From: Escherichia coli
GTDB lineage: Bacteria; Pseudomonadota; Gammaproteobacteria; Enterobacterales; Enterobacteriaceae
Assembly (NCBI RefSeq): GCF_003334815.1
Contig: NZ_QOWO01000002.1
Length of the DNA: 64,000 nucleotides
Direction: 5' to 3' (one strand)
The position numbers were made by a program, and so were the translations under genes. Shown here in pieces: positions 1 through 24,467 of the stretch. The notes beneath the pieces were generated by a model. That model had not been told where the DNA came from. It made no database searches and saw only the letters and a program-made list of their open reading frames with translations. The stretch's first letter is position 1, and every line of letters begins with the position of its first letter.

Positions 1-1640
1 AAATTGTGGGTTTTCGCGGTATCAACCGTTTGTCGTTGATGCTGGAACAAAACAACGTCCTGATTGGGGAAAACGCGTGGGGTAAATCCAGCTTGCTGGA
101 CGCCTTAACTCTGCTGCTATCGCCAGAATCAGATCTCTACCATTTTGAGCGCGACGATTTCTGGTTCCCGCCGGGAGATATCAACGGGCGAGAACATCAT
201 CTGCATATTATTTTGACCTTCCGCGAATCGCTGCCAGGCCGACATCGGGTTCGCCGTTATCGGCCGCTGGAAGCGTGCTGGACGCCATGCACCGATGGCT
301 ATCACCGTATTTTTTATCGTCTGGAAGGGGAGAGTGCGGAAGACGGCAGCGTGATGACACTGCGCAGTTTTCTCGATAAAGACGGACATCCGATTGATGT
401 CGAGGATATTAACGATCAGGCACGCCATCTGGTGCGTTTAATGCCGGTGCTGCGCTTGCGTGATGCCCGTTTTATGCGCCGTATTCGTAACGGCACGGTG
501 CCAAATGTCCCTAATGTGGAAGTCACCGCGCGCCAGCTCGATTTCCTCGCCCGTGAGTTATCCTCACATCCGCAAAATCTCTCTGATGGGCAGATTCGTC
601 AGGGACTTTCCGCAATGGTACAGCTGCTTGAGCATTATTTCTCTGAGCAGGGGGCCGGACAGGCGCGATATCGTTTAATGCGGCGGCGAGCCAGCAATGA
701 GCAACGAAGCTGGCGCTATCTGGATATCATCAACCGGATGATTGACCGACCTGGTGGGCGCTCGTATCGGGTTATTTTGCTCGGCCTATTTGCTACTTTG
801 TTGCAGGCAAAAGGCACATTGCGACTGGATAAAGACGCCCGTCCATTGTTGCTGATCGAAGATCCAGAAACCCGTTTACACCCCATTATGCTTTCAGTTG
901 CCTGGCATCTGTTGAATCTTCTGCCATTGCAGCGCATTGCCACCACCAACTCGGGTGAGTTGCTTTCGTTAACGCCGGTAGAGCATGTTTGCCGACTGGT
1001 ACGTGAGTCCTCGCGCGTTGCCGCCTGGCGTCTGGGGCCGAGTGGCTTGAGTACCGAAGATAGCCGACGCATATCCTTTCACATTCGTTTTAACCGTCCG
1101 TCATCGCTGTTTGCACGCTGCTGGTTGCTGGTGGAAGGGGAAACGGAAACCTGGGTTATCAATGAACTGGCGCGTCAGTGCGGACATCATTTTGATGCCG
1201 AAGGGATCAAGGTCATTGAGTTTGCCCAGTCCGGGCTAAAGCCACTGGTTAAATTTGCCCGCCGAATGGGGATTGAATGGCATGTACTGGTCGATGGCGA
1301 TGAAGCAGGGAAGAAATATGCCGCTACGGTACGCAGCCTGTTGAATAACGATCGGGAAGCCGAACGAGAACATTTAACGGCGTTACCGGCGCTGGATATG
1401 GAACATTTTATGTATCGCCAGGGATTTTCCGATGTGTTCCACCGCATGGCGCAAATCCCGGAAAATGTACCGATGAATCTACGCAAAATTATCTCGAAAG
1501 CGATCCATCGCTCTTCCAAACCCGATCTTGCCATTGAAGTGGCAATGGAGGCAGGACGTCGTGGTGTGGACTCCGTACCGACGCTGCTGAAAAAAATGTT
1601 CTCACGCGTGCTGTGGCTGGCGCGCGGTCGCGCGGATTAA
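1..1640 (+). CDS. ybjD: OLD-family ATP-dependent endonuclease-like protein (AAA ATPase N-terminal region), 5' end cut by window edge
   Basis: Frame of ORF 6..1640 is open to position 1 (track start at 6 is a GTG inside the gene); P-loop GENAWGKSSLLD; followed by ybjX and macAB as in E. coli. Confidence 0.85.
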   Translation, partial: IVGFRGINRLSLMLEQNNVLIGENAWGKSSLLDALTLLLSPESDLYHFERDDFWFPPGDINGREHHLHIILTFRESLPGRHRVRRYRPLEACWTPCTDGYHRIFYRLEGESAEDGSVMTLRSFLDKDGHPIDVEDINDQARHLVRLMPVLRLRDARFMRRIRNGTVPNVPNVEVTARQLDFLARELSSHPQNLSDGQIRQGLSAMVQLLEHYFSEQGAGQARYRLMRRRASNEQRSWRYLDIINRMIDRPGGRSYRVILLGLFATLLQAKGTLRLDKDARPLLLIEDPETRLHPIMLSVAWHLLNLLPLQRIATTNSGELLSLTPVEHVCRLVRESSRVAAWRLGPSGLSTEDSRRISFHIRFNRPSSLFARCWLLVEGETETWVINELARQCGHHFDAEGIKVIEFAQSGLKPLVKFARRMGIEWHVLVDGDEAGKKYAATVRSLLNNDREAEREHLTALPALDMEHFMYRQGFSDVFHRMAQIPENVPMNLRKIISKAIHRSSKPDLAIEVAMEAGRRGVDSVPTLLKKMFSRVLWLARGRAD

Positions 1641-2629
1641 CCGCGAAACATCGTGGCCATTTGTGGCTGAATAGCGTCGAGCATCTCATAGCGCCGACGG
1701 TATTCAGCCCGTTTTTTACTGGCGATTTCGGCAATCTCTTTTCGTGCTATCTGTGCTGGAAGGCGGTAATGGCGTTCAGCATCACATACGCCGCCAACCG
1801 ATTCCCAGAAAGCGTTGTAATCAGCGTGGATCTTGCCTTCTTTATCGCGATAACGCAGGCTGCGGTAAATATGCGTTTCATTGCTGACGGCAATAATCTG
1901 CTCTACCTGCAAACGTTGGGCAAACAGACAGGCCGCTTCCATCACGAGGCGTTTGGGAAATAGCCCGTGGCAGGCTTTCGTCGCATTCTGGATTTCCTGA
2001 TGTGGAATTTCCCATTTTGCGCCTTGCAGTCCGCCAATAAACATCGTTCTTTTCCCCTGATATTCACACAGGGTAAACGTGATCTCTGCCAGAGGAATAC
2101 CTTCGCTGTTGCGGAACAGGATTGTGCTGTCACCTTCTTTATCCATTGAGATCATCATGGTCAGCTCAAGCGTGAACTGCTCGCCGTTTTTGCCTTCCAG
2201 CTTCGCCAGTTGCAGCCCGGGGGTATTCAAATATAAGCTGAATTCTTCCGCCGACATACATTCGCGGAGTAACGCATAATGGTAACGTAACGCCTCCAGC
2301 AATTGCTTACGGCTAAGATTCGCCGCAAGGTAAGGGCGATGCAGACGCACAGGCAGTCGCGGCTGGCGCGTTAACAATACATTGAGATTAGGCCAGTGGG
2401 AAAGTTCGTTCATCCACTCAACGCTTAAACGCGGCATAATCAACGAGCGCAGCAAAAATTTCTGGCGAAAACTACGGCGATGCCAGAATTTACCCGGCCG
2501 ACACTGTCCACGTGCCAGACTAAGAAAAAGTGACAGGCTGCTGAGAGATTCAGATGGCGTAAAGGTCCGTTCAGTTAGCTGCGACATATTCATGAAATCA
2601 ATGGTTATACATGGCGTCGATTTCACCAT
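1637..2629 (-). CDS. ybjX: DUF535/VirK-like protein YbjX
   Basis: 330-aa ORF; sequence recognised as YbjX; divergent from macA. Confidence 0.85.
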   Translation of the reverse strand: MVKSTPCITIDFMNMSQLTERTFTPSESLSSLSLFLSLARGQCRPGKFWHRRSFRQKFLLRSLIMPRLSVEWMNELSHWPNLNVLLTRQPRLPVRLHRPYLAANLSRKQLLEALRYHYALLRECMSAEEFSLYLNTPGLQLAKLEGKNGEQFTLELTMMISMDKEGDSTILFRNSEGIPLAEITFTLCEYQGKRTMFIGGLQGAKWEIPHQEIQNATKACHGLFPKRLVMEAACLFAQRLQVEQIIAVSNETHIYRSLRYRDKEGKIHADYNAFWESVGGVCDAERHYRLPAQIARKEIAEIASKKRAEYRRRYEMLDAIQPQMATMFRG

Positions 2630-9261: not shown

Positions 9262-9349
9262 GTTCACTGCCGTACAGGCAGCTTAGAAATTCACAGGTAA
9301 CATACTCCACCCGCCCACCATGTTCACTGCCGTACAGACAGATAAAATG
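9262..9349 (+). CRISPR. Orphan type I-F (Ypest-type, CRISPR4-like) mini-array: 2 repeats, 1 spacer, no adjacent cas genes
   Basis: 28-bp repeat GTTCACTGCCGTACAGGCAGCTTAGAAA at 9262-9289; 32-bp spacer ttcacaggtaacatactccacccgcccaccat at 9290-9321; degenerate terminal repeat GTTCACTGCCGTACAGACAGATAAAATG at 9322-9349. Confidence 0.7.
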
Positions 9350-9392: not shown

Positions 9393-9480
9393 TGGCGGTG
9401 AGGGGGGGATTCGAACCCCCGATACGTTGCCGTATACACACTTTCCAGGCGTGCTCCTTCAGCCACTCGGACACCTCACC
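9393..9480 (-). tRNA. serW: tRNA-Ser (anticodon GGA), 88 nt including CCA
   Basis: Reverse complement reads GGTGAGGTGTCCGAGTGGCTGAAGGAGCACGCCTGGAAAGTGTG...GGTTCGAATCCCCCCCTCACCGCCA; long variable arm typical of class II tRNA-Ser. Confidence 0.93.
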
Positions 9481-24229: not shown

Positions 24230-24249
24230 TACCCAATTTTTCTGAATCT

Positions 24250-24277
24250 AAAAAGCGCCTGCGGGCGCTTTTTTTGT
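24250..24277 (+). terminator. Rho-independent terminator of serS
   Basis: aaaaagcgcc-tgcg-ggcgc followed by TTTTTTTG. Confidence 0.7.
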
Positions 24278-24467
24278 CTCCCTTTGATACCGAACAATAA
24301 TTACTCCTCACTTACACGTAATACTACTTTCGAGTGAAAATCTACCTATCTCTTTGATTTTCAAATTATTCGATGTATACAAGCCTATATAGCGAACTGC
24401 TATAGAAATAATTACACAATACGGTTTGTTACTGGAATCAATCGTGAGCAAGCTTGAGTGAGCCATT

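What the first reader, a model, noticed from the sequence alone, without database searches (positions are those of the whole stretch)
1..1640. Conserved but functionally uncharacterised OLD-family nuclease-like gene ybjD
The product has an N-terminal ABC/AAA-type ATPase P-loop (GENAWGKSSLLD) and belongs to the OLD (overcoming lysogenization defect) family, whose members elsewhere act in phage defence or abortive-infection systems, often with partner genes. Here it is a stand-alone core gene next to ybjX and macAB with no obvious helicase or methylase partner. Its physiological role is, to my knowledge, not established.
Basis: partly seen in the sequence, partly recalled or inferred. Interest (0 to 1): 0.3.

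Follow-up and report, generated by a model that had tools for sequence, protein, structure and literature searches.

The report
E. coli ybjD, stand-alone OLD nuclease
This is the known E. coli core gene ybjD, a stand-alone OLD-family ATPase-nuclease that a 2026 paper named oldB; its natural role is still unknown, and its most conserved part, the nuclease site, is the part the published anti-phage effect does not need.

Summary
Window 1-1640 (+) is E. coli ybjD. The window edge removes its first 7 codons, and it differs from K-12 MG1655 by one synonymous base. Pfam finds DUF2813 (an ABC-type ATPase, E 8e-156) followed by OLD-like_TOPRIM (E 8e-16). An AlphaFold model (pLDDT 88.8) matches GajA and Thermus OLD over the full length.

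The gene has no partner: no helicase, reverse transcriptase or methylase lies next to it. It is present in 5425 of 5426 complete E. coli genomes. The lysO-(aqpZ)-ybjD-(ybjX)-macAB order holds out to Yersinia and Proteus. Close relatives are absent from phages and from genuine plasmids. dN/dS is about 0.02-0.06.

Across 115 diverse relatives the invariant residues are mostly the two-metal nuclease site: E385, E387, D440, E474 and K513, with E389, D438 and D472 at 90% or more.

The gene is already known. Schiltz 2019 placed it in Class 1 OLD. A May 2026 micropublication reported weak anti-phage effects on overexpression that did not need the Toprim domain, and no knockout phenotype.

My best reading is an ATP-gated nuclease kept for a conserved cellular or surveillance role. 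It does not behave like a mobile defence gene. Interest is low to moderate.

The parts
1..1640 (+). ybjD (oldB) coding sequence. It is cut at the 5' end by the window edge (codon 8 starts at nt 3). The stop codon is at 1638-1640.
3..1106 (+). N-terminal ABC-type ATPase region (Pfam DUF2813), full-length residues 8-375
   Evidence: E 8.1e-156. A family profile matches TsOLD, GajA, PtuA and Rad50/SMC/RecN/RecF heads.
66..92 (+). Walker A / P-loop GENAWGKSS (G29-S37; K35)
   Evidence: K35 is K in 103 and R in 10 of 117 relatives. E30 is invariant.
459..821 (+). Helical insertion within the ATPase (about residues 160-280), the presumed dimerisation domain. It evolves fastest and has the lowest model confidence.
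   Evidence: helices 162-277; pLDDT below 50 at 167-175 and 223-241; highest dN in residues 51-280. Calling it the TsOLD/GajA dimerisation domain is an inference from PMC7049728 and PMC10568477.
846..881 (+). Walker B and D-loop, LLLIEDPETRLH (E293, D294, E296, H300)
   Evidence: E293 is E in 104 of 117, E296 in 108, H300 in 115. These correspond to Ts E276 and H283 by motif (PMC7049728).
942..953 (+). H-loop position, TTNS. The usual histidine is Asn323 in E. coli.
   Evidence: N 74, H 18, Q 13, Y 9 of 117. Schiltz 2020 already noted His-to-Asn exchange in Class 1 OLDs.
1107..1301 (+). Toprim core (Pfam OLD-like_TOPRIM), carrying E385-G-E387-x-E389 (nt 1134-1148) and D438-G-D440 (nt 1293-1301)
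   Evidence: E385, G386, E387 and D440 are invariant; E389 and D438 are conserved at 90% or more.
1395..1628 (+). C-terminal helical region carrying D472-x-E474 (nt 1395-1403) and K513-P514 (K513 at nt 1518-1520). These are the presumed metal-B ligands and the catalytic lysine.
   Evidence: E474, K513 and P514 are invariant; D472 is 96% conserved. The assignment to metal B and the lysine rests on the shared pattern with Bp T506/E508/K562 and P2 D541/E543/K550. It was not checked by superposition.
1637..2593 (-). ybjX (VirK/YbjX family), the convergent neighbour. Its stop codon overlaps the ybjD stop within TTAA (1637-1640). It is not a conserved partner.
   Evidence: ybjX is absent from 21 of 80 syntenic loci and is only 44-77% identical outside Escherichia, against 67-91% for YbjD. 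The pair is listed as a convergent excludon in PMC12288877.

Best explanation
ybjD encodes a stand-alone (Class 1 by context) OLD-family enzyme. It has an ABC-type ATPase head with a helical insertion, presumed to be a dimerisation domain, fused to a Toprim nuclease with a complete two-metal active site.

Proposed mechanism:
- ATP binding at the head (K35) holds the protein in a restrained state.
- Loss of nucleotide binding, or a still unknown cue, releases an activity that is harmful to the cell.
- The Toprim site then nicks or degrades nucleic acid. DNA is the most likely substrate.

The gene is ancient, single-copy and vertically inherited in Enterobacterales, with recognisable orthologues in Aeromonas and Vibrio. 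It is not a mobile defence cassette. Selection acts at least as strongly on the nuclease half as on the ATPase half. The function being maintained therefore needs the nuclease and is probably a conserved cellular one, such as nucleic-acid surveillance or processing. The Toprim-independent anti-phage effect seen on overexpression is probably a by-product of the ATPase/DNA-binding half.

Shown here: architecture, invariant residues, purifying selection, synteny, and absence from phages and plasmids. Shown in the literature: the overexpression, knockout and mutant phenotypes. Inferred: dimerisation, ATP gating, the substrate and the cellular role.
For: - Domains and fold.
- Invariant E385, G386, E387, D440, E474, K513 and P514, with E389, D438 and D472 at 90% or more, across 115 relatives that are 27-54% identical to YbjD (apart from two close orthologues).
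- dN/dS is 0.015-0.06. dN is lower in residues 378-552 than in 1-377 in all 8 species pairs.
- The gene is present in 5425 of 5426 E. coli genomes. It is a single full-length piece in 59 of 60 evenly sampled genomes.
- Synteny holds in 80 of 80 loci (78 Enterobacteriaceae, plus Samsonia and Brenneria), and also in Yersinia and Proteus.
- Identity falls with phylogenetic distance: 75-91% in Enterobacteriaceae, 67-68% in Pectobacteriaceae, 64% in Yersinia, 56% in Proteus, 45% in Aeromonas and 43% in Vibrio.
- All 7 sampled contexts of relatives at 35-53% identity sit among housekeeping genes with no helicase, reverse transcriptase or methylase.
- No phage carries a close relative. Plasmid records at 42% identity or more are very large records, most without plasmid-like mobility typing, or carry chromosomal neighbours; I read them as chromosomes, chromids or chromosomal fragments. 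Listed OLD genes on ordinary-sized plasmids are at most 32% identical over part of the length.
- Literature (PMC13261556): the K35A mutant is more toxic, the Toprim deletion keeps the phage phenotype, the ATPase deletion loses it, and the knockout has no phenotype.
- Precedents: ATP inhibits GajA cleavage, and the archaeal OLD protein Cran1 has a non-defence role.
Against: - No biochemical data exist for YbjD.
- The only phenotypes reported are anti-phage and toxicity effects, so a defence role cannot be excluded.
- The gene is dispensable in the laboratory (Keio knockout; IS1 insertions in NCM3722-type K-12 strains).
- It has not been shown that K35A toxicity depends on the nuclease.
- The H-loop Asn and the degenerate signature motif leave open whether ATP is hydrolysed at all.
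- No regulatory clue was found: there is no LexA or PhoP box above chance and no clear promoter.
Confidence: 0.5

Rival explanations
1. YbjD is a dedicated single-gene anti-phage defence system (Class 1 OLD, 'OldB'). It senses infection and blocks phage replication, as Vc OLD and P2 Old do.
For: It belongs to the OLD family. Its strongest PADLOC hits are GajA and Old models. Overexpression reduces plaquing of Bas18 and Bas20 and shrinks plaques of Bas64-68 at a non-toxic inducer level (PMC13261556).
Against: - The knockout shows no change against 68 BASEL phages.
- The phenotype needs neither the Toprim domain, nor the three catalytic acidic residues, nor K35, yet the nuclease residues are the invariant ones.
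- The gene is core, syntenic and vertically inherited under strong purifying selection, and is not in a defence island.
- Close relatives are absent from phages and genuine plasmids.
Confidence: 0.3
2. The Toprim domain targets RNA, for example tRNA, as in P2 Old, PARIS AriB and RNase M5. YbjD would then be a stress- or infection-triggered translation shut-off enzyme.
For: P2 Old cleaves host tRNA once activated (cited in PMC13261556). The OLD active site mirrors that of RNase M5 (PMC6755086). Overexpression is toxic.
Against: YbjD does not kill recBC(ts) cells as P2 Old does. It is only about 28% identical to P2 Old over the Toprim region. TsOLD, Bp/Xcc OLD, GajA and Vc OLD all cut DNA.
Confidence: 0.12
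3. YbjD is a decaying remnant of a Gabija system, an orphan GajA that lost GajB, and has no current function.
For: The best PADLOC model is a GajA model, PDLC00094, at 260 bits against 78 bits for the P2-type Old model. Class 2 OLDs nest within Class 1 in published trees (PMC12796447).
Against: No GajB/UvrD-like gene lies next to it in E. coli, in 80 syntenic loci, or in 7 distant contexts. dN/dS is 0.015-0.06 and the catalytic site is invariant. The gene is a single full-length piece in 59 of 60 sampled E. coli genomes.
Confidence: 0.02

Closest known systems
Thermus scotoductus OLD (Class 1; PDB 6P74)
   Same: Stand-alone gene with an ABC ATPase, a helical insertion and a Toprim domain. It is the best PDB match of the family profile (E 4.5e-22) and has a Foldseek E-value of 1.4e-17. 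Shared motifs: Glu at Walker B, His in the D-loop, a degenerate signature motif, and metal-A E/DxD.
   Different: Identity is only about 17% in the Foldseek alignment. TsOLD lacks a C-terminal helical bundle and uses Arg in place of the lysine. YbjD has four C-terminal helices and an invariant K513. The YbjD H-loop residue is Asn, not His.
Bacillus cereus GajA (Class 2 OLD, Gabija)
   Same: Same architecture, with the top Foldseek hits (E about 1e-19) and a profile match of E 8.6e-21. A PADLOC GajA model is the best defence-model hit (260 bits). ATP restrains GajA cleavage, which fits the higher toxicity of K35A.
   Different: GajA works in a 4:4 complex with the helicase GajB, encoded next to it. 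YbjD has no such neighbour anywhere in its clade. Gabija is an accessory, mobile system, whereas ybjD is a core gene.
Phage P2 Old (the founding Class 1 member)
   Same: Single-gene OLD with the same set of ATPase and metal A, metal B and lysine motifs.
   Different: About 28% identity, and only over residues 252-440. P2 Old is phage-borne and kills recBC mutants, whereas YbjD does not.
Cran1 (archaeal Class 5 OLD)
   Same: An OLD-family ATPase-nickase with a conserved cellular role that is not in defence. It is a precedent for a chromosomal 'domesticated' OLD.
   Different: Cran1 is archaeal, essential and cell-cycle regulated. ybjD is dispensable. Sequence relatedness was not tested here.
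Vibrio cholerae Vc OLD (Class 1)
   Same: A stand-alone bacterial OLD that acts independently of RecBCD and nicks DNA.
   Different: Vc OLD needs its ATPase residues, protects at native level, and lies in a divergent clade that a phage inhibitor counters. The chromosomal Vibrio orthologue of YbjD is found next to ushA in Vibrio sp. HDW18, with an identical context for relative P0126. That it is a different gene from Vc OLD is my inference; the two were not compared directly.

Membership tests
OLD family (ATPase-Toprim nucleases) | N-terminal ABC-type ATPase with Walker A and Walker B | tested here: met
   Pfam DUF2813, AAA_15 and AAA_21. GENAWGKSS and LLLIED are conserved. The family profile hits TsOLD, GajA, Rad50 and SMC heads.
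OLD family (ATPase-Toprim nucleases) | C-terminal Toprim domain with the invariant Glu and DxD (metal A) | tested here: met
   PF20469 at E 7.7e-16. E385 and D440 are invariant and D438 is 98% conserved.
OLD family (ATPase-Toprim nucleases) | Second metal site (acidic or hydroxyl residue, x, Glu) plus a catalytic Lys or Arg | tested here: inconclusive
   E389, D472-x-E474 and K513 are invariant or nearly so, and they fit the Bp and P2 pattern.
OLD family (ATPase-Toprim nucleases) | Overall fold with a helical dimerisation insert in the ATPase | tested here: met
   The AF2 model has pLDDT 88.8, with helices at 162-277. It gives full-length Foldseek matches to GajA and TsOLD at E 1e-19 to 1e-17. 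Dimerisation itself was not tested.
OLD family (ATPase-Toprim nucleases) | Metal-dependent nuclease activity and ATP binding or hydrolysis | not testable with these tools
   No biochemical study of YbjD was found.
Class 1 OLD (stand-alone) | Single gene without an adjacent UvrD-like helicase, reverse transcriptase/ncRNA, or split ATPase and Toprim genes | tested here: met
   The neighbours are aqpZ, ybjX and macAB. The same holds in 80 syntenic loci and in Yersinia, Proteus and Vibrio, and in 6 metagenomic or genomic contexts. Rfam finds no retron ncRNA.
Gabija GajA (Class 2 OLD) | Adjacent gajB (UvrD/PcrA/Rep-like helicase) gene | tested here: not met
   No helicase gene lies next to ybjD or any sampled relative, despite the strong hit to GajA model PDLC00094.
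Typical anti-phage defence gene | Patchy, accessory distribution in defence islands or mobile elements, with horizontal transfer | tested here: not met
   Present in 5425 of 5426 genomes. The locus is fixed across Enterobacterales. Absent from phages and genuine plasmids. omega is 0.015-0.06.
Typical anti-phage defence gene | Protection at native expression that is lost on deletion | not testable with these tools
   Literature: the Keio knockout shows no change against the BASEL phages, and effects appear only on overexpression (PMC13261556).

The most novel reading that the evidence does not exclude
The YbjD/DUF2813 clade is a domesticated OLD nuclease that has been inherited vertically since before Enterobacterales, Aeromonadales and Vibrionales diverged. 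It performs a conserved nucleic-acid-processing or genome-maintenance task that depends on the nuclease, making it a bacterial counterpart of archaeal Cran1. The published anti-phage effect would then be an overexpression by-product of its ATPase/DNA-binding half.
Probability: 0.35. Interest if true: 0.55.

Novelty: already known. Interest (0 to 1): 0.3.

Why it matters
What stand-alone OLD nucleases do in cells has been an open question since the family was defined. ybjD is the copy carried by the best-studied bacterium. It is unusual among OLD genes in being a fixed, strongly constrained core gene. The only published phenotype does not need the Toprim domain, yet selection is strongest on the nuclease site. 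That mismatch says the real function has not been found, and it points to specific experiments at the native locus. If the role turns out to be cellular, it would extend the non-defence side of the OLD family from archaea to bacteria.

Tried and rejected
- **Partner gene:** I found no helicase, reverse transcriptase or methylase next to ybjD in E. coli, in 80 syntenic loci, or in 7 distant contexts.
- **ybjX as partner:** rejected. It is missing from 21 of 80 loci and diverges much faster than ybjD.
- **Orphan-GajA decay:** rejected on the selection data.
- **SOS regulation:** no LexA box lies near ybjD. The two one-mismatch hits in the locus are inside hcp and macB, and the count is at chance level.
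- **PhoP box:** hits are at chance level.
- **Promoter and terminator scan:** uninformative.
- **NCBIfam:** only sub-threshold P-loop hits, and no curated family.
- **Literature:** 'DUF2813' returned no papers and 'b0876' and 'STM0939' nothing functional. One search on 'OLD family/core genome/housekeeping' returned only irrelevant papers.
- **Giant relatives (1000-1867 aa):** I checked whether they were Rad50-like coiled-coil versions. By eye the extra length is two low-complexity inserts, so I dropped the idea.
- **Salmonella screen:** Schiltz 2020 cites a transposon screen in which 'old' is conditionally essential under temperature stress. I could not verify that this refers to the ybjD orthologue.
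- **Active-site geometry:** AF2 model coordinates could not be read, so I could not check that the conserved residues cluster in three dimensions.

Full report
**What is there**

Window 1-1640 (+) holds one uninterrupted reading frame ending in TAA at 1638-1640. It is E. coli ybjD. The K-12 gene (552 aa) begins 21 nt upstream of the window, so the first seven codons are cut off. The window copy differs from MG1655 by a single synonymous base.

Pfam finds DUF2813 over residues 1-368 of the window protein (E 8e-156) and OLD-like_TOPRIM over 369-433 (E 8e-16). The quoted P-loop also gives weak AAA_15, AAA_21, AAA_29 and SMC_N hits.

**Surroundings**

- aqpZ (-) lies upstream, outside the window.
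- ybjX (-, VirK/YbjX family) is convergent, and its stop codon overlaps the ybjD stop within TTAA at 1637-1640.
- macA, macB, cspD, clpS and clpA follow.
- No helicase, methylase or reverse transcriptase gene is nearby, and Rfam finds no retron ncRNA.
- The ybjD-ybjX pair is listed among convergent 'excludons' in PMC12288877.

**Anatomy**

An AlphaFold2 model built on 115 relatives is confident (pLDDT 88.8, pTM 0.87). It shows three parts: an ABC-type head split by a helical insertion (about residues 160-280, the least confident and fastest-evolving part), a Toprim core, and four C-terminal helices.

Foldseek matches GajA and Thermus OLD over the full length (E 1e-19 to 1e-17). The retron Eco8 OLD, PtuA and SMC/Rad50 heads follow. 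A family profile ranks TsOLD (4.5e-22) and GajA (8.6e-21) about equally.

Across 115 relatives that are 27-54% identical to YbjD (apart from two close orthologues), the invariant columns are E30, H367, R379, W381, E385, G386, E387, G418, D440, G443, E474, K513 and P514. E389, D438, D472, H300 and E296 are conserved at 90% or more. This set corresponds to:
- the metal-A triad (E385, D438, D440);
- a metal-B-type set (E389, D472, E474);
- a lysine (K513), following the pattern defined for Bp OLD, TsOLD and P2 Old.

The metal-B and lysine assignment rests on that pattern and has not been checked by superposition.

In the ATPase, K35 is K or R in 113 of 117 relatives. Walker B is 'IED', the D-loop has His300, and the H-loop histidine is Asn323 in E. 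coli and in most relatives. Schiltz 2020 had already noted that substitution in Class 1 OLDs.

**Population and evolution**

- ybjD is present at 95-100% identity in 5425 of 5426 complete E. coli genomes. It is a single full-length piece in 59 of 60 evenly sampled genomes. The exception is an IS1 insertion in NCM3722-type K-12 strains.
- A scan of one genome per species returned at least 585 genomic stretches encoding a relative. The 80 best are all Enterobacteriaceae, apart from Brenneria and Samsonia.
- In those 80 loci ybjD is always present, in the order lysO-(aqpZ)-ybjD-(ybjX)-macA. ybjX is missing from 21 of them and is far more divergent.
- The same synteny holds in Yersinia (hcp-lysO | ybjD | ybjX | macAB-cspD) and in Proteus (lysO | ybjD | macA).
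- Identity falls in step with phylogenetic distance: 75-91% in Enterobacteriaceae, 67-68% in Pectobacteriaceae, 64% in Yersinia, 56% in Proteus, 45% in Aeromonas and 43% in Vibrio.
- The Vibrio orthologue and an independent relative (P0126) share the same terC-ushA context.
- Other relatives at 35-53% identity sit among housekeeping genes such as thiL-pgpA/dxs, cysS/nrdAB and hslUV, again without a partner.
- No phage carries a close relative; P2 Old is 28% identical over part of the length.
- Plasmid records at 42% identity or more are very large records or carry chromosomal neighbours, so I read them as chromosomes, chromids or chromosomal fragments. Listed OLD genes on ordinary-sized plasmids are at most 32% identical over part of the length.
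- Nei-Gojobori dN/dS is 0.015 against E. albertii and 0.03-0.06 against more distant genera, where dS is saturated. dN is lower in residues 378-552 than in 1-377 in all eight comparisons.

**What is already known**

Schiltz et al. 2019 used YbjD as the query that defined the OLD classes, and placed E. coli in Class 1.

Atahualpa et al. (MicroPubl Biol, May 2026, PMC13261556) reported the following:
- ybjD is transcribed in K-12.
- The Keio knockout does not change plating of 68 BASEL phages.
- Arabinose-induced expression reduces plaquing of Bas18 and Bas20 and shrinks plaques of Bas64-68.
- Deleting the Toprim domain, or mutating its three acidic residues, changes nothing.
- Deleting the ATPase domain abolishes the effect.
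- K35A keeps the effect and is more toxic.
- Unlike P2 Old, YbjD does not kill recBC(ts) cells.

They proposed the name oldB. The gene, its family and its class are therefore known, while the physiological role is not.

**Interpretation**

Identity as an OLD-family ATPase-Toprim nuclease is close to certain. I think the most likely mechanism is a homo-oligomeric, nucleotide-gated nuclease. ATP binding restrains it, which fits the K35A toxicity and the GajA precedent. The two-metal Toprim site then cuts nucleic acid, most likely DNA.

The new point from this analysis is a mismatch. The published phenotype does not need the Toprim domain, yet the Toprim site is the most conserved part of a vertically inherited, strongly constrained core gene. 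Selection must therefore be acting on a nuclease-dependent function that the plaque assays did not capture.

ybjD does not have the distribution of a defence gene: it is fixed rather than patchy, it is not in an island, and it is not on mobile elements. DefenseFinder's figure of 0.45% of genomes for Class 1 OLD evidently does not count this clade; that is my inference. I therefore favour a conserved cellular or surveillance role (0.5) over dedicated phage defence (0.3). An RNA-targeting variant is possible (about 0.1). A decaying Gabija remnant is effectively excluded.

**Verdict**

Interest is low to moderate, at 0.3. It rests on the open physiological role and on the conflict between what is conserved and what the published phenotype requires. 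Point mutants at the native locus and simple biochemistry would resolve that conflict.

Noticed in passing
window 9262-9289 (+): A single CRISPR direct repeat (Rfam CRISPR-DR4, 50 bits) sits between clpA and tRNA-Ser(GGA) at 9393-9480. From my own knowledge this looks like the vestigial type I-F CRISPR repeat found at the clpA-infA locus in E. coli strains that lack I-F cas genes.
   Followed up: no
window 24243-24377 (-): Full-length match to the enterobacterial sRNA family STnc130 (140 bits).
   Followed up: no
window 1637-1640: The ybjD and ybjX stop codons overlap within TTAA and no terminator lies between the two genes. The pair is listed as a convergent 'excludon' in PMC12288877. ybjX is nevertheless lost in Klebsiella, Raoultella and other genera while ybjD stays.
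   Followed up: partly
NZ_CP011495.1 and four other K-12-derived genomes (hits H1-H5): An IS1A element splits ybjD into two annotated fragments in NCM3722, WG1, CY598, CY706 and CY708, so the gene is dispensable in the laboratory.
   Followed up: no
proteins P0150, P0162, P0163, P0165, P0170, P0175 and others; locus L007 6001-10449: These relatives of YbjD are 1000-1867 aa long and share a near-identical N-terminus (MYLQSAEI.NF.GIRHL). They carry two large low-complexity inserts, one after about residue 63 and one between about residues 492 and 498 in the C-terminal helical region. The only source examined (L007, for P0175) is a metagenome scaffold, and the source organism is unknown.
   Followed up: partly
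plasmids collection, hits H15-H31: Some of these 'plasmid' records are 4-5 Mb long (for example NZ_OL790696.1, NZ_CP141089.1 and the Proteus and Aeromonas records), and others are smaller records in which ybjD sits next to its chromosomal neighbour ybjX. I take them to be mislabelled chromosomes or chromosomal fragments, which inflates apparent plasmid carriage.
   Followed up: partly
PMC6737244, gene-expression table: ybjD (UTI89_C0880) is listed at 1.31 among genes that change after treatment of UPEC with a cathelicidin-derived peptide, alongside arnF, marR and evgS. This may hint at a link to envelope stress.
   Followed up: no
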